From assembly GCA_964016885.1 (NCBI GenBank), contig OZ024764.1:11904001-11968000 (forward strand): DNA of 64,000 nt. The letters are read 5' to 3'. The notes under the pieces are model-generated. The model saw only the letters and a program-made list of their open reading frames with translations. It ran no database searches and was not told where the DNA came from. Positions 1,762-61,003 of the stretch are shown piece after piece (the first letter of the stretch is position 1; each line of letters opens with the position of its first letter). This stretch comes from Eledone cirrhosa. Lineage: Eukaryota. The position numbers were made by a program, and so were the translations under genes.

Positions 1762-1914
1762 CTGTGGTTGGGTCCATATCAAAGACCCCTTGGTTCTGTA
1801 TATTCCGCCTACGTACTATTAATACTAGTATAACAACCACAGTTATACACACAGCAAATGCGACACACACACCAATATACATGGCCATGTTGTTTGATTC
1901 TTCCGCTTCTCCGG
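1762..1914 (-). CDS. unc5: UNC-5-like transmembrane exon
   Basis: gtatatttcag|CC...ACAG|gttagt, 153 nt, phase 1-1. AGEAEESNNMAMYIGVCVAFAVCITVVVILVLIVRRRNIQNQGVFDMDPTT is a hydrophobic helix followed by an RRR stop-transfer, similar to the UNC5 xALYxG TM start. Confidence 0.9.
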
Positions 1915-5774: not shown

Positions 5775-5846
5775 CATCTGGATTATTAATGTTGTTGTTG
5801 TTGTTGTTGATGTTTTTATTGGGTTCACCTCCTTGAAAGTTTCTAG
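5775..5846 (-). CDS. unc5: Putative 72-nt juxtamembrane stalk exon (ARNFQGGEPNKNINNNNNNINNPD)
   Basis: tgctccatttcag|CTAGAAAC...CCAGATG|gtgagt. Phase 1-1, 24 codons, open in the frame that links TSP1-2 to the TM exon. Confidence 0.7.
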
Positions 5847-8345: not shown

Positions 8346-8375
8346 CATCAGTAGGATTCACATAGACTACAGCAC
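8346..8375 (-). CDS. unc5: Putative 30-nt stalk microexon ([10 protein letters not shown])
   Basis: attctttctctcttttaag|GTGCTGTAGTCTATGTGAATCCTACTGATG|gtgagt. Phase 1-1, open. A unique island between two microsatellite fields. Confidence 0.72.
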
Positions 8376-20432: not shown

Positions 20433-20600
20433 CTCCATCACGACACATGCCATTGGTACAATTGCTGGTGTCCAAGTCCGTTCCGTCACAGTACTCCCCA
20501 CCATATGTAGGCTCAGGGTTGTCGCACGACCTACGCCTGTGATGGACGCAGTCCGGGGAGCAAGTGGACCACGAAGACCAAGTTGACCACACACCTTGCA
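20433..20600 (-). CDS. unc5: UNC-5-like exon, thrombospondin type-1 repeat 2
   Basis: tcaacag|TG...GGAG|gtatat, 168 nt, phase 1-1. [56 protein letters not shown]. The donor is weaker than the others. Confidence 0.93.
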
Positions 20601-25668: not shown

Positions 25669-26560
25669 CGAGGTGTGTCAGAAAAGTTCCAGGATTGATG
25701 TCACAAAAGATTTATTTCAAACCCAAACTTCACACTAAGAGTTTTCTCCTTCAAAGTAATCCCCCTTGGAGTCTAATGCAACTTTTCCATCCTTTTCTGC
25801 CACGCTTGCATGCACTCCTGGAAGGATTCTTCCGGGATCCTCCGCAGTTCCGTTGTCACGGCCTTTTTGATGTCGCCCACGTCTTCAAAACGGGTCCCCT
25901 CCAGGTCGTACTCGAAGATCCATGACTCATCACCGGTGATGACTGTCCCTAGCAAGTCTGGTTCGGTTTCAAGACGCTCGAGGATGTCCTGGCACACTTG
26001 CATGCGTCGACCCTTCTGGTCATCGTTCAGCAGTTTTGGCACCATCTTCGCACAGACTTTCCGCATGTCCAAATCTTCAGTGAGAATCTTCCAGACGCTG
26101 TCCCGATTCATGCCCAGCTCATTTGCCATCACTCAAACAGTCAGCCGACGATCGCTATGCACCATCTGCCTGATGCGCTCAACATTGACCTCAGTCCTGG
26201 TTGTTGAGGGCCTTCCACTCCTGGGGTCATCTTGCACCACTCAAAAACACGTGAGCGTGACATCGTCTCATCTCCATACACTTGCTGCAGCAATCCCGTG
26301 CTTCTAACAGAGTTTTCCCCAACCGTACCAGAAACTTCAAATTTGTTCTTTGTTCTGTGCTCATTGCTTGACTTGACGACCTGAAACAGAGGACATGTAT
26401 ATAAAATTATGAAGAAAAAGGTTTGATCGCTGCAGAGAGCTAAGATTACAGTTCCATACTCCAGGGGGATTACTTTGAAGGAGAAAACTCTTAGTGTGAA
26501 GTTTGGGTTTGAAATAAATCTTTTGTGACATCAGTCCTGGAACTTTTCTGACACACCTCG
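25669..26560 (-). mobile_element. Internally deleted mariner (Tc1/mariner) transposon
   Basis: About 100-bp inverted termini CGAGGTGTGTCAGAAAAG flanked by TA. Decayed transposase ...KMVPKLL...VITGDESWIFEYD is joined directly to the C-terminal LEGTRFEDVGDIKKAV, so the rest of the catalytic domain is missing. Confidence 0.9.
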
Positions 26561-36131: not shown

Positions 36132-37165
36132 CATATATACATATACAATCATCATAGAAGGAAAACATCCTAGAAAGACCTAACTGCAAGCTACAACAAT
36201 TATGTGCAAACTACAACAACAACTACAACAACAACAAAGACAACAATGAAAACACAATCAACAACAACAACAACAACAACACCAACAAAACAACAACACC
36301 AATGTCAACATTAGCAACGACAACATCGACTGCATGACTGCAAATGCACATGTGCAATGAAACGCAATGGATATGAAATGAAGTGAGGTGAGGTGAGGTG
36401 TGAGGCAACGAGCTGAGACAAGGTGAAGTGATGTGTGTAGGCTGGGGTTGGGGGCGTAGTATGGGTGGGGTATGGAGAGGGGTGAGTGTGTGGTGGGAGG
36501 GTGACGGTGGGGTGGTGGTGTGTGGTGGCGGTTGGGTGTGTGGTGGGAGTGGGGTGCTGTGGCGGTGGATCGTTGTGGGGCTGATGGGAGGGCAGCGGTG
36601 GCCGTGGTGGTGTGTGGTGGGAGGGTAGTGGTGGTGGTTGGGTGTGTGGTGGGAGTGGGGTGTTGTGGGGGGTTAAGCGTGGAGGGGTGGGTGGCGGGCA
36701 GTCGGGGCGGTGGTGGTGTGTGGTGGGAGGGCAGTGGTGGTGGTTGGGGTGTGGTGGGAAGGCAGTGGTGGTGGTTGGGTGTGTGTGGTGGTGGTAGGAG
36801 GGCACTGGTGGTGGTGGTGGACGTGTGGTGAGGTGTGGTGTTAGTGGTGGTGGGGGTTATCTTTGTGGTGGTGCTGCCATTGGTTGGGTCACTGATAGGG
36901 TGGTGGTGGAGCTATCACTGTGGTAACATTTGTATGACTATCGTGGTGGTGGTGGTGGTGGTGGGGTTTGTGGTGAGGGGGGGGCAGTGGTGGAGAGGAA
37001 ATAGGGGAGGGTGAAGGTGTTTTTTACAACAACAAAATGTTTTTAATATATACATATATATGTATATGTGTATGTGTATATATATATATATAAACACACA
37101 CATATGTATGTATATATATATGTATATATATATATATATATATAAACACATATGTATATACATAC

Positions 37166-37208
<43 letters not shown>

Positions 37209-37263
37209 TACACATATATATACACATATATATATACATATGTTTGGATATGAAAATTCTTAC

Positions 37264-37275
37264 CTTGGTGTCCAT
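37264..37275 (-). CDS. unc5: Putative 12-nt microexon between the TSP1 repeats (adds D-G-H-Q)
   Basis: Minus strand reads ttttcttcttccacaaaatgcttcttttccaaag|ATGGACACCAAG|gtaaga. Strong polypyrimidine tract, UGC near the 3' splice site, phase 1-1, no stop. Confidence 0.65.
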
Positions 37276-37319
37276 CTTTGGAAAAGAAGCATTTTGTGGA
37301 AGAAGAAAATGAATGAGAT

Positions 37320-39720
37320 TGAGATATAGAGAGGGGGGGAGAGTGAGTCAGTGATATATAGAGAGGGGGAGAGAGTGAGTCAGTGATATATAGAGAGGGG
37401 GAGAGAGTGAGTCAGTGATATATAGAGAGGGGGAGAGAGTGAGTCAGTGATATATAGAGAGGGGGGAGAGAGCAAGTCAGTGATATATGGAGAGGGGGGA
37501 GAGAGCGAGTCAGTGATATATGGAGAGGGGGAGAGAGCGAGTCAGTGATATATAGAGAGGGGGAGAGAGCGAGTCAGTGATATATAGAGAGGGGGAGAGA
37601 GCAAGTTAGTGATATATATGGAGAGGGGGAGAGAGCGAGTCAGTGATATATAGAGAGGGGGGAGCGAGTCAGTGATATATAGAGAGGGGGGGAGAGCGAG
37701 TCAGTGATATATAGAGAGGGGAGAGAGGCGAGTCAGTGATATATAGAGAGGGGGGAAGAGAGCGAGTCAGTGATATATAGAGGGGAGAGCGCGAGTCAGT
37801 GATATATAGAGAGGGGGAGAGAGCAAGTCAGTGATATATAGAGAGGGGGAGAGAGTGAGTCAGTGATATAGAGAGAGGGGGCAGTCAGTGATATAGAGAG
37901 AGAGAGCGAATCAGTGATATATAGAGAGGGGGAGAGAGCGAGTCAGTGATATATGGAGAGGGGGAGAGAGCGAGTCAGTGATATATAGAGAGGGGGGGAG
38001 CGAGTCAGTGATATATGGAGAGGGGGGAGAGAGCGAGTCAGTGATATATGGAGAGGGGGAGAGAGTGAGTCAGTGATATATGGAGAGGGGGGATGAGAGC
38101 GAGTCAGTGATATATCGAGAGGTGGGAGAGAGCGAGTCAGTGATATATGGGAGAGGGGGGGAGAGAGCAAGTCAGTGATATATCGAGAGGTGGGAGAGAG
38201 CGAGTCAGTGATATATGGAGAGGGGGAGAGAGCAAGTCAGTGATATATAGAGAGGGGGAGAGAGCGAGTCAGTGATATATAGAGAGGGGGAGAGAGCGAG
38301 TCAGTGATATATAGAGAGGGGGGAGAGAGCAAGTTAGTGATATATATGGAGAGGGGGAGAGAGCGAGTCAGTGATATATAGAGAGGGGGGGGAGCGAGTC
38401 AGTGATATATAGAGAGGGGGGGAGAGCGAGTCAGTGATATATAGAGAGGGGAGAGAGCGAGTCAGTGATATATAGAGAGGGGGGGAAGAGAGCGAGTCAG
38501 TGATATATAGAGGGGGGAGAGCGCGAGTCAGTGATATATAGAGGAGGGGGAGAGAGCAAGTCAGTGATATATAGAGAGGGGGAGAGAGTGAGTCAGTGAT
38601 ATAGAGAGAGGGGGCAGTCAGTGATATAGAGAGAGAGAGCGAATCAGTGATATATAGAGAGGGGGAGAGAGCGAGTCAGTGATATATGGAGAGGGGGAGA
38701 GAGCGAGTCAGTAATATATAGAGAGGGGGAGAGAGCGAGTCAGTGATATATGGAGAGGGGGAGAGAGCAAGTCAGTGATATATAGAGAGGGGGAGGAGAG
38801 CGAGTCAGTGATATATAGAGAGGGGGAGAGAGCGAGTCAGTGATATATAGAGAGGGGGAGAGAGCAAGTTAGTGATATATATGGAGAGGGGGAGAGAGCG
38901 AGTCAGTGATATATAGAGAGGGGGGGGAGCGAGTCAGTGATATATAGAGAGGGGGGTGAGAGCGAGTCAGTGATATATAGAGAGGGGAGAGAGCGAGTCA
39001 GTGATATATATAGAGAGGGGGGGAAGAGAGCGAGTCAGTGATATATAGAGGGGGGAGAGCGCGAGTCAGTGATATATAGAGAGGGGGAGAGAGCAAGTCA
39101 GTGATATATAGAGAGGGGGAGAGAGTGAGTCAGTGATATAGAGAGAGGGGGCAGTCAGTGATATAGAGAGAGAGAGCGAATCAGTGATATATAGAGAGGG
39201 GGAGAGAGCGAGTCAGTGATATATGGAGAGGGGGAGAGAGCGAGTCAGTATATATAGAGAGGGGGATGAGAGCGAGTCAGTGATATATAGAGAGGGGGGA
39301 GAGAGCGAGTCAGTGATATATAGAGAGGGGCAGAGAGCGAGTCAGTGATATATAGAGAGGGGGAGAGAGCAAGTCAGTGATATATAGAGAGGGGAGAGTG
39401 CGAGTCAGTGATATATAGAGAGGGGGAGAGAGCAAGTCAGTGATATATGGAGAGGGGGAGAGAGAACATCTGTGATATATATAGATAGGGAGAGAGAACG
39501 TCCTGTGATATATAGAGAGGGGGAGAGAGCAAGTCAGTTATATATAGAGAGGGAGGAGAGAGTGAGTAAGTCATATATAGAGAGGGAGAGAGTGAGTAGG
39601 TCATATATAGAGAGGGAGAGAGCGAATCTGTGAGATATAGAGGGGGAGAGAGCGAATCAGTGAGATATAGAGAGGGAGAGAGCGAGTCAGTGAGATATAG
39701 AGAGGGGGTGGGAGTTTCTT
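37320..39720. repeat. ~33-bp purine-rich minisatellite with higher-order blocks
   Basis: Unit gagagcgagtcagtgatatatagagagggg. Confidence 0.92.
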
Positions 39721-41020: not shown

Positions 41021-41525
41021 CAAGCCACTACCTGCAGCCTCAGATATTCAGGACGTTTCAGAGGGTTGTTGCTGTTCCCAGCAAGCATGCCTTTTGAAGT
41101 GTTCCAAAAAAGGGTGCTGGACTAATGTTCTTTAACCATCCTTGGAAACTCTTTGAGATAGTACCTAGTGCCCCTATGACAATCGGGACGACCTTGATCT
41201 CAAGCCGCTACCTGTAGCCTCAGATATTCAGGACGTTTCAGAGGGTTGTTGCTGTTCCCAGCAAGCATGACTTTTGAAGTGTTCCAAAAAAAGGTACTGA
41301 ACTAATGTTCTTTAACCTTCCTTGGAAACTCTTTGAGATAGTACCTAGTGCCCCTATGACAACCGGGAAGACCCTGATCTCATGACAGTCCCAAATCTTT
41401 TTCAATTCCCACTTTAAATCCTGGTATCGGTTAATTTTCTCCCTCTCCTTTTCTTGCCCTCTTGTGTCAAAGGGGCAGGCTACATCTACAATCAGGCACA
41501 ATCTTTTTTCCATCCACATCAAAAC
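41021..41525 (-). mobile_element. 3' fragment of a non-LTR retrotransposon with restriction-like endonuclease (R4/Dong-like), with a 180-bp tandem duplication
   Basis: CLIVDVACPFDTRGQEKEREKINRYQDLKWELKKIW...PVVIGALGTI...LQKSCLLGTA. Confidence 0.75.
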
Positions 41526-41614
41526 CCCCAGGTCAGGCCTAATGAAACACTGATATACGGCACCCCTACGACTATCAAGGAGTTACGAGACCATCCATAC
41601 ATACGAATATATCA

Positions 41615-42494: not shown

Positions 42495-43490
42495 TGAAAT
42501 TATTGTGTAAAGTGCTCAGGTGCACTACAACTCGTCACTATAGTACATAGAATAATACACAAATGTCAGGGAAGTACATGTGTGTATGTGTTAGCTGTTC
42601 TGTTGGCGGATCTCGGGAAGCATGGAGGCCTTAAAGGATGCAGTGTCTCGACAGCTAACAACTGATGTAGGTAGTTTGTTCCATGGAGGCCTTAAAGGAT
42701 GCAGTGTCCCGACAGCTAACAACTGATGCAGGTAGTTTGTTCCATGGAGGTTTTAAAGGATGCAGTGTCTCGACAGTTAACAACTGATGCAGGTAGTTTG
42801 TTCCATGGAGGTTTTAAAGGATGCAGTGTCTCGACAGCTAACAACTGAAGCAGGTAGTTTGTCCCATGGAGGTTTTAAAGGATGCAGTGTCTCGACAGCT
42901 AACAACTGATGCAGGTAGTTTGTTCCATGGAGGTTTTAAAGGATGCAGTGTCTCGACAGCTAACAACTGATGCAGGTAGTTTGTTCCATGGAGGCATTAA
43001 AGGATGCAGTGTCTCGACAGCTAACAACTGATGCAGGTAGTTTGTTCCATGGAGGTTTTAAAGGATGCAGTGTCTCGACAGCTAACAACTGAAGCAGGTA
43101 GTTTGTCCCATGGAGGTTTTAAAGGATGCAGTGTCTCGACAGCTAACAACTGATGCAGGTAGTTTGTTCCATGGAGGTTTTAAAGGATGCAGTGTCTCGA
43201 CAGCTAACAACTGATGCAGGTAGTTTGTTCCATGGAGGTTTTAAAGGATGCAGTGTCTCGACAGCTAACAACTGATGCAGGTAGTTTGTTCCATGGAGGC
43301 CTTAAAGGATGCGCAGTGTCTCGACAGCTAACAACTGATGCAGGTAGTTTGTTCCATGCTTCAGCAACTCTGAGCGTGAAAAAATGTTTCCGAAAGTCAT
43401 GGGAACTGTGCTGTTTTCTTACTTTGTGGGCATGTCCACGTGTGTTAGACACATGGAAATCGAAAAGGTACTCAGGGTTGTTGTTAAACT
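42495..43490 (-). mobile_element. CR1/L2-like LINE 3' end containing a 61-bp array (~12 copies, 42621-43357)
   Basis: SNTRGHAHKVRKQHSSHDFRKHFFTLRVAEAWNKLPASVVSCRDTASFKTSM (TRGH...FFxxRVxxxWNxLP motif). Related 3' UTR pieces at about 31810-31975 and 61950-62270. Confidence 0.8.
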
Positions 43491-47047: not shown

Positions 47048-47228
47048 CAAAAACTGTGAGCATGGCGGCTTTACTGAGACGTTTACTGGCAAGATTCTGG
47101 GCTCCACACGTATAGTTACCCATGTCGGAGAGCTGGGCCTGGTTGATAATGAGGCTGTTGTCATGAGAGTTAATAAGGTTGACATCCTTGGCAAAGTCCA
47201 CCAGTTGACCATCCTTCAGCCAAAATAC
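47048..47228 (-). CDS. unc5: UNC-5-like exon, second part of Ig domain 2
   Basis: ttacag|GTA...TTTG|gtaagg, 181 nt, phase 0-1. VFWLKDGQLVDFAKDVNLINSHDNSLIINQAQLSDMGNYTCGAQNLASKRLSKAAMLTVF carries the Ig I-set W and DxGxYxC motifs. Confidence 0.95.
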
Positions 47229-60541: not shown

Positions 60542-61003
60542 ATGATTTGCGTATAATCCCTTCGTTGCTGACCACTGCCCGGTCAGGAGCTGTTTTAGAC
60601 TTCCGGTTCCACGCGTGGCAGTTGCACGAGTAGTCATCGTTGCCGAAGTAGGCGTCCACCTCCTCCCGCGTCACCTCAATGCTGGTGATCAAGTACTTCC
60701 CGCCGCTCTTCGGGTCGGTCACCTCCACCTTGGACATGCTGCGCAGGGGTATCACCTGTCCGCTGCACTGGAACTGCACGTTGGTGGCACTGGTCACGTG
60801 GCAGCTGACCAGGGCCGGCTTGTGCCTCAGCACGTAGTAGACGCTCTCCGGCTGTTTCGTGAACACCGGAAGGTCGCTGCCGGCGGCCACCCCTCCGCGG
60901 ACGGTTCCTGTCTCTCCTCCTCCTCCACCTCCTCCCCCTCCGCCTGTGTCATCCCCTCCCCCACCGCCTCCTCCTTGGCCGGCAGCCATTGGAATGAAAA
61001 CAC
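60542..61003 (-). CDS. unc5: UNC-5-like netrin receptor, exon encoding Gly-rich N-terminal segment + Ig domain 1
   Basis: Acceptor ttcctcag| and donor T|gtaagt, phase 1-1, 462 nt. Translation (G)VFIPMAAGQGGG...DLPVFTKQPESVYYVLRHKPALVSCHVTSATNVQFQCSG...SIEVTREEVDAYFGNDDYSCNCHAWN...IIRKS resembles UNC5 Ig1. Confidence 0.93.

What the first reader, a model, noticed from the sequence alone, without database searches (positions are those of the whole stretch)
37264..37275. 12-nt neural-type microexon between the two thrombospondin repeats
Seen: a long pyrimidine tract with UGC shortly before the AG, exon ATGGACACCAAG and donor gtaaga, isolated between a TA microsatellite and a satellite in the 25-kb interval between the two TSP1 exons. 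Inclusion changes ...ALCP-VQGVW to ...ALCP-DGHQ-VQGVW. Known: UGC near the 3' splice site is the signature of Srrm3/4 (eMIC)-regulated neural microexons. Inference: a tunable hinge between TSP1 domains that could alter partner binding. Standard annotation would probably miss it.
Basis: partly seen in the sequence, partly recalled or inferred. Interest (0 to 1): 0.75.

Follow-up and report, generated by a model that had tools for sequence, protein, structure and literature searches.

The report
Conserved 12-base microexon in mollusc unc-5
The netrin-receptor gene unc-5 of this mollusc carries a 12-base optional exon, skipped in one transcript of this species and present letter for letter (DGHQ) in a relative's protein that lacks the whole next domain, so it likely belongs to a nerve-cell splicing switch that reshapes the receptor's outer stalk.

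Summary
On the minus strand at 37275-37264 lies ag|ATGGACACCAAG|gtaaga, in phase with both TSP1 exons of the genome's only detected unc-5 gene. It has UGC at -16 and a 2,192-nt AG-free zone, and is the only strong candidate of 140 in the 25-kb intron.

Two sets of transcript evidence show an alternative exon. A spliced contig of this species joins TSP1a directly to TSP1b (skip form). Two unnamed proteins of a relative (2 and 32 contigs) read ALCP-DGHQ-GAYVLVD (inclusion).

Optional short exons occupy the same junction in mussel (DGSYNG), stink bug (DGTFGS), horseshoe crabs and cockroach.

An eMIC-type regulator exon is in the genome, but neural specificity and eMIC dependence are inferred, not tested.

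Verdict: a real, conserved microexon and a new member of a known kind. Its possible coupling to domain skipping and its possible protostome-wide age are the interesting parts.

The parts
37264..37275 (-). 12-nt phase 1/1 microexon ATGGACACCAAG (adds D-G-H-Q)
   Evidence: Sequence; DGHQ in relative's proteins P0368/P0369; skipped in contig of run X1
37276..37319 (-). Acceptor region: pyrimidine tract (23 of 30), UGC starting at -16, YUNAY candidates at -35 and -39
37258..37263 (-). Donor GTAAGA (score 7.2 on a rough matrix; the other six exons and 39 score 2.0-7.9)
37320..39708 (.). 32-bp satellite, pyrimidine-rich on the transcribed strand; makes most of a 2,192-nt AG-free zone upstream of the microexon
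37046..37241 (.). AT microsatellite just downstream of the donor
60542..61003 (-). unc-5 Ig1 exon (boundaries predicted)
   Evidence: PF25609 E 2.7e-27; single match in the genome
56960..57063 (-). unc-5 Ig2 first exon (predicted)
   Evidence: 24/34 identical to P0369; splice sites
47048..47228 (-). unc-5 Ig2 second exon (predicted)
   Evidence: PF07679; 53/60 identical to P0369
45859..46026 (-). TSP1a exon (168 nt, phase 1/1)
   Evidence: PF00090; X1 contig covers exactly this exon
20433..20600 (-). TSP1b exon (168 nt, phase 1/1, weakest donor scored); likely a cassette exon
   Evidence: PF00090; in X1 contig; absent from P0368/P0369 and from gastropod isoforms P0330, P0338, P0341, P0342
8346..8375 (-). 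30-nt stalk exon ([10 protein letters not shown]), counterpart of GAYVLVDPSD in P0368/P0369
   Evidence: Loose end of X1 contig after TSP1b
5775..5846 (-). 72-nt stalk exon candidate (ARNFQGGEPNKNINNNNNNINNPD), UGC at -13
   Evidence: Only acceptor starting CT between the 30-nt and TM exons in the scan, matching just the last 2 loose letters of X1; weakly supported
1762..1914 (-). Transmembrane exon (predicted)
   Evidence: 39/49 identical to P0369

Best explanation
This is an alternatively spliced 12-nt exon of unc-5, skipped in a transcript of this species and included in a relative's protein that lacks the second TSP1 domain; it is likely switched on in neurons by the eMIC form of Srrm234 and likely helps remodel the receptor's membrane-proximal stalk. 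Shown: exon anatomy and frame; the skip junction here; the DGHQ peptide in the relative; optional exons at the same junction in mussel and arthropods; an SRRM_C exon in this genome. Inferred: (1) a 12-nt exon is too short for ordinary exon definition and is skipped by default; (2) eMIC acts through the UGC-bearing acceptor and includes it in neurons; (3) the same cells tend to skip the weak-donor TSP1b exon, giving Ig-Ig-TSP1a-DGHQ-flexible stalk-TM instead of Ig-Ig-TSP1a-TSP1b-stalk-TM; (4) this would change the reach and flexibility of the ectodomain, and so how netrin binding at the Ig domains is passed to the cytoplasmic ZU5-UPA-death module, rather than netrin affinity itself. My odds: real alternative exon 0.93; neural and eMIC-dependent 0.7; inclusion mostly coupled to TSP1b skipping in this species 0.45.
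For: Skip junction: X1 contig, record 654-822 on TSP1a and 820-992 on TSP1b. Inclusion: P0368 (2 contigs) and P0369 (32 contigs, longest 6,026 nt) encode full 937-aa UNC5 with ALCP-DGHQ-GAYVLVDPSD and one TSP1; contigs that short holding the whole frame must be spliced RNA (inference: Ig1 to TM alone spans 59 kb here). DGHQ is 4/4 identical while the next stalk exon is 6/10 and Ig1 60/112. Of nine acceptors examined only the microexon and the 72-nt stalk candidate have UGC within 22 nt of the AG; AG-free zone 2,192 nt against 23-367 for the other eight. These are features reported for eMIC exons (PMC8797185 passage; bioRxiv 2024.09.17.613571 passages). PF15230 over its cut-off in G000. RefSeq with/without pairs at this junction in five species. 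TSP1b-less isoforms in Haliotis asinina and Gigantopelta. Precedent: loss of the 33-nt stalk exon 8 of UNC5B leaves netrin affinity unchanged yet blocks pro-survival signalling (PMC8358048 passages); two Unc5d exons of 33 and 15 nt are classed eMIC-sensitive in mouse.
Against: No inclusion transcript of this species was seen (one spliced contig, depth 5.79). No tissue is on record for X1, P0368 or P0369. The relative may have lost TSP1b from its genome, which would remove the coupling argument. In Mytilus edulis all 4 listed isoforms with the insert keep TSP1b, so coupling is not general. All four exon combinations keep the frame and the exons are 16.7 kb apart, so nothing forces exclusivity. 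UGC is neither necessary for nor specific to SRRM4 response (79% and 74% of targets). No CUAAY branch point within 100 nt, and the donor is strong, whereas fly eMIC exons have weak donors. Fly unc-5 appears in the eMIC table only with an 83-nt LowPSI exon.
Confidence: 0.62

Rival explanations
1. One reading: the microexon is neural but independent of TSP1b, and its main product here is CP-DGHQ-VQGVW, a flexible hinge between two TSP1 domains.
For: Mussel, stink bug, horseshoe crab and cockroach isoforms carry the insert with both TSP1 domains. In the model of the mussel form the insert (303-308) is a low-confidence stretch between two confident domains. The combination is in frame.
Against: 0 of the 2 DGHQ-bearing proteins found has TSP1b. 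Low pLDDT may only reflect few aligned rows at those columns.
Confidence: 0.25
2. It is a real alternative exon but regulated otherwise (Nova, Rbfox, ELAV, or a muscle or developmental programme), or constitutive in a relative that has lost TSP1b.
For: No tissue data. UNC5B exon 8 is controlled by NOVA2 in endothelium. Both full-length members of the relative's 3-member cluster are the same isoform.
Against: UGC position, very long AG-free zone, 12-nt length and an SRRM_C exon in the genome all fit eMIC control. The skip form exists in this species.
Confidence: 0.1
3. In this species the sequence is a silent relic or a chance look-alike that is never spliced in.
For: Only the skip form was seen here; signal-only shuffles give a comparable site in 8%.
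Against: Exact DGHQ in the relative's protein at the exact junction; intact splice sites in a 78-nt island between two repeats.
Confidence: 0.03

Closest known systems
eMIC (Srrm234 / SRRM3/4)-regulated neural microexons (PMC8797185; bioRxiv 2024.09.17.613571)
   Same: Very short, frame-keeping, UGC shortly before the AG, long AG exclusion zone, neuronal wiring gene.
   Different: Tissue pattern and regulator dependence untested here; no CUAAY branch point; strong donor (as described for the mammalian core architecture, unlike fly); AG-free zone made largely by a satellite.
Optional exons at the TSP1a/TSP1b junction of protostome UNC5 (RefSeq isoforms: Mytilus edulis DGSYNG, Halyomorpha halys DGTFGS, Tachypleus DKRKENIINR, Limulus DNRKENTINR, Periplaneta GGVFDENTVIV)
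   Same: Same protein junction; optional; mussel and stink bug inserts also begin D-G.
   Different: 18-33 nt rather than 12; always seen with TSP1b present; intron position and orthology not checked on genomic DNA.
Vertebrate UNC5B exon 8 (33 nt; PMC8358048) and mouse Unc5d 33- and 15-nt eMIC-sensitive exons (table S2 of PMC8797185)
   Same: Short optional ectodomain exons of the same receptor family; the UNC5B one changes signalling without changing netrin affinity.
   Different: UNC5B exon 8 lies next to the membrane (after both TSP1 domains by the paper's description) and is NOVA2-skipped in endothelium; the Unc5d exons lie in that stalk too (recalled, not checked). The exon here is one intron upstream.
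Single-TSP1 UNC5 isoforms of gastropods (Haliotis asinina X4, Gigantopelta X6-X8)
   Same: TSP1b is skipped and TSP1a runs into the stalk, as in P0368/P0369.
   Different: They show no DG-type insert after TSP1a.

Membership tests
eMIC-regulated neural microexon | Length 3-27 nt (range recalled) and frame-preserving | tested here: met
   12 nt, phase 1/1, no stop
eMIC-regulated neural microexon | Alternatively spliced (both forms exist) | tested here: met
   Skip form in this species; inclusion in a relative. Both forms in one species not shown.
eMIC-regulated neural microexon | UGC between branch point and AG | tested here: met
   UGC starts at -16; YUNAY candidates at -35 and -39
eMIC-regulated neural microexon | Long AG exclusion zone and pyrimidine tract | tested here: met
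   2,192 nt against 23-367 for eight other acceptors; 23 of 30 pyrimidines
eMIC-regulated neural microexon | Strong CUAAY branch point (fly pattern) | tested here: inconclusive
   Four YUNAY matches within 100 nt, none CUAAY
eMIC-regulated neural microexon | Regulator with eMIC domain encoded in the genome | tested here: met
   PF15230 SRRM_C, 29.3 bits against cut-off 27, in an RS-rich exon; equating SRRM_C with eMIC is recalled; the last eMIC exon was not traced
eMIC-regulated neural microexon | Neural-specific inclusion | not testable with these tools
   No run with tissue or raw reads was listed
eMIC-regulated neural microexon | Inclusion depends on eMIC | not testable with these tools
   Needs minigene or knock-down
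UNC5 netrin receptor (host gene) | Unc5 N-terminal Ig, second Ig, two TSP1, transmembrane helix | tested here: met
   single PF25609 match in G000
UNC5 netrin receptor (host gene) | Cytoplasmic ZU5, UPA and death domains | not tested
   Beyond the window's edge and not fetched; present in the relative P0369
Mutually exclusive exon pair (microexon / TSP1b) | Exactly one of the two exons in each transcript | tested here: inconclusive
   Both observed forms fit (X1; P0368/P0369) but come from different species; mussel has both exons together, gastropods neither

The most novel reading that the evidence does not exclude
An ancestral protostome microexon ('DG...') has been kept at the TSP1a/TSP1b junction of unc-5 in molluscs and arthropods. 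In this lineage (inferred to be cephalopods) it has become one arm of a neuron-specific either/or switch with the whole second TSP1 domain 16.7 kb away, so that neurons make a single-TSP1 receptor with different netrin signalling.
Probability: 0.2. Interest if true: 0.75.

Novelty: new member of a known kind. Interest (0 to 1): 0.52.

Why it matters
[quoted passage not shown] An optional exon at one junction of an axon-guidance receptor across molluscs and arthropods is a clean, testable case of either deep conservation or repeated origin at a hotspot. If inclusion is tied to loss of a whole TSP1 domain, neurons of this lineage would use a structurally different netrin receptor from other tissues, although the genome shows only one unc-5 gene. 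The work also adds one confirmed and one candidate stalk exon to the gene model.

Tried and rejected
Homologue search with the Ig1 exon found nothing among 155 candidates. No protein named as cephalopod came up, so whether public annotation has this exon is open.

No RNA holder was listed for the TSP1a exon; run X1 behaves as spliced RNA, X2 and X3 as genomic. Contigs drop rare variants, so the missing inclusion form in X1 is no evidence of absence. X2 and X3 laid nothing on TSP1b, which the tool says can be false.

A metagenome scan with P0369 gave 23 pattern matches, none confirmed. The protein atlas gave no result. Three look-ups of earlier findings were empty.

With the same thresholds no other 3-27-nt candidate passed in four other introns (0 of 2, 32, 0, 164). 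That scan assumed phase 1 throughout, which is wrong for the phase-0 intron between the Ig2 exons.

A silent C/T difference at the start of the TM exon could also explain the 'CT' after the 30-nt exon in X1; not excluded.

The junction classifier (157 proteins: 121 short linker, 21 long, 15 'no TSP1b') mislabels at least 5 of the 15 (P0076, P0117, P0288, P0359, P0362) and missed P0147; I used only hand-read cases.

The AlphaFold models only show low confidence at the inserts and were not used as proof of flexibility. No complex prediction was run, as no binding claim is made. Four ORFs I took for transposon remnants gave no Pfam match.

Literature: no paper in the held library joined the terms. 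Listings showed none on this exon by title or abstract start. Torres-Mendez 2019 is not held and bioRxiv supplements are closed; either may already list this exon for octopus.

Full report
1. Observation. It occurs once in the window and sits in a 78-nt island between an AT microsatellite and a 32-bp satellite of 75.6 copies. The host gene is unc-5: Unc5 N-terminal Ig, a second Ig in two exons, two TSP1 exons and a transmembrane exon. The TSP1a exon matches UNC5B, UNC5D and UNC5A structures among other TSP1 proteins. The genome (3.0 Gb) gave one PF25609 match among 11 candidates scored. The best-scoring named proteins are gastropod and bivalve UNC5; that the animal is a cephalopod is my inference from genome size and repeat style, not a tool result.

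2. Chance. In the 25,258-nt intron, 1 of 140 frame-keeping, stop-free short AG...GT candidates passed my filter, against 0 of 179 on the antisense strand. Shuffles gave such a site in 8% of 200 runs, and in 3% with UGC. I set the thresholds knowing the candidate, so this alone is suggestive only.

3. Skip form. Three runs hold the TSP1a exon, none on record as RNA. A 1,118-nt contig of run X1 covers exactly the exon and continues with the first 30 bases of TSP1b. Laid on TSP1b, the same contig occupies record positions 820-992, directly after 654-822. So this transcript skips the microexon. After TSP1b it continues into a 30-nt exon at 8375-8346 and then two letters, CT, that fit a 72-nt candidate at 5846-5775.

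4. Inclusion form. A search with the TSP1a exon returned 3 proteins, among them P0368. It and its cluster mate P0369 (10 differences in 937 aa; seen on 2 and 32 contigs, longest 4,227 and 6,026 nt) read ...ALCP-DGHQ-GAYVLVDPSD-DKSSGVALPKGVDSPD-ASEAESPGNIAMYIG. They are much closer to the window than the seven named mollusc or nemertean proteins compared (Ig2b 53/60 against 31-40; TM 39/49 against 12-25). DGHQ is exact, and GAYVLVDPSD matches the window's 30-nt exon at 6 of 10 positions, so DGHQ is a separate unit, as in the window's DNA. The pattern AG-[DGHQ codons]-GT is found once in the window and in 0 of 100 shuffles. The whole TSP1b domain is missing from these proteins (one TSP_1 stretch), and the model puts residues 295-334, from the insert to the membrane helix, below pLDDT 50.

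5. Other animals. RefSeq isoform pairs with and without an insert at this junction:
- Mytilus edulis: DGSYNG in X1, X2, X4, X7; absent in X3, X5, X8.
- Halyomorpha halys: DGTFGS in X1, X2; absent in X3.
- Tachypleus: DKRKENIINR in X1, X2, X4, X5, X6; absent in X3, X7, X8.
- Limulus: DNRKENTINR in X1, X2, X4, X5; absent in X3.
- Periplaneta: GGVFDENTVIV in X1; absent in X2.
In all of these the insert comes with TSP1b. No insert was seen in the listed two-TSP1 isoforms of other Mytilus species, scallops, Haliotis, Gigantopelta, Patella, Lottia, Tubulanus or the fish; cluster listings stop at 15 members (15 of 28 for the large Mytilus cluster). TSP1b-less isoforms are annotated in Haliotis asinina and Gigantopelta. 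Patella X6 ends CP-DGKT-GKPSLFPSC; reading through the window's own microexon donor gives DGHQ-GKNF, so X6 may be a 12-nt DGKT microexon with read-through (inference, unchecked).

6. Regulation. UGC starts at -16 and the AG-free zone is 2,192 nt, against 23-367 for eight other acceptors; only the 72-nt candidate also has a close UGC. [quoted passage not shown] In human, UGC is found in 79% and 74% of the two target classes and is not strictly required (bioRxiv 2024.09.17.613571, passages). The genome has an RS-rich exon matching SRRM_C just over its cut-off. In table S2 of PMC8797185 (rows seen) two mouse Unc5d exons, 33 and 15 nt, are eMIC-sensitive; fly unc-5 has only an 83-nt LowPSI exon. 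No tissue data were available, so neural control remains inferred.

7. Mechanism. Most likely the exon is skipped by default and included in neurons through eMIC. Two transcript types were seen, from two species: microexon-/TSP1b+ and microexon+/TSP1b-. With the weak TSP1b donor (2.0) this suggests co-regulation that trades a folded TSP1 domain for four residues of stalk. Nothing forces exclusivity, mussel carries both exons, and the relative might lack TSP1b in its genome, so I give coupling 0.45. UNC5B binds netrin with its two Ig domains (PMC10871540, passages), and loss of the 11-residue stalk exon of UNC5B leaves affinity unchanged but blocks netrin's pro-survival signal (PMC8358048, passages). 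By analogy the effect here would be on geometry and signal transfer; this step is inference. The FLRT-latrophilin complexes that use Unc5D TSP1 (PMC4838878, passages) are unlikely to apply, since FLRTs are reported only in vertebrates (PMC10084454, passages).

8. Novelty. Neural microexons and their eMIC regulator are known across bilaterians (Torres-Mendez 2019 itself not held). The 2026 preprint (passages and section 10) covers Octopus bimaculoides, does not name unc5 in its main text, and describes repeated origin of neural exons in the same coding region as common; its supplements could not be seen and may list this exon. My searches found no paper on it. It is a new member of a known kind. 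The shared D-G start in this lineage, mussel and stink bug, and the link to TSP1b loss, are the parts that could make it more.

9. Verdict. Observation confirmed; interpretation partly supported; interest 0.52.

Noticed in passing
window 8346-8375 (-): 30-nt stalk exon [10 protein letters not shown], spliced after TSP1b in the X1 contig and conserved in P0368/P0369.
   Followed up: yes
window 5775-5846 (-): 72-nt Asn-rich stalk exon candidate with UGC at -13 and an inner donor that would give an 18-nt form; supported by only two letters of the X1 loose end.
   Followed up: partly
window 20595-20600 (-): The TSP1b exon has an internal donor 6 nt in (score 5.1), stronger than its true donor (2.0); its use would give an in-frame 6-nt exon (VQ) and drop the domain. 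Not seen in any transcript.
   Followed up: no
window 37320-39708: The 32-bp satellite abuts the microexon's acceptor; on the transcribed strand it is pyrimidine-rich, nearly AG-free and repeats CTGAC, so it could act as an extended tract or branch-point source.
   Followed up: partly
P0348 (Patella vulgata X6): Ends CP-DGKT-GKPSLFPSC; may be a 12-nt DGKT microexon read through its donor.
   Followed up: no
L002 (G000:C22:28167743-28167880, -): RS-rich exon matching SRRM_C (PF15230), the likely eMIC-coding part of Srrm234.
   Followed up: partly
P0212, P0213, P0215 clusters: Gastropod UNC5 has two or more optional stalk exons between TSP1b and the membrane helix, so the whole stalk is combinatorially spliced in molluscs.
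   Followed up: partly
window 25776-26530 (-), 41241-41582 (-), 43207-43488 (-): ORFs that looked to me like transposon remnants (recalled resemblance); no Pfam match at E 0.001.
   Followed up: partly
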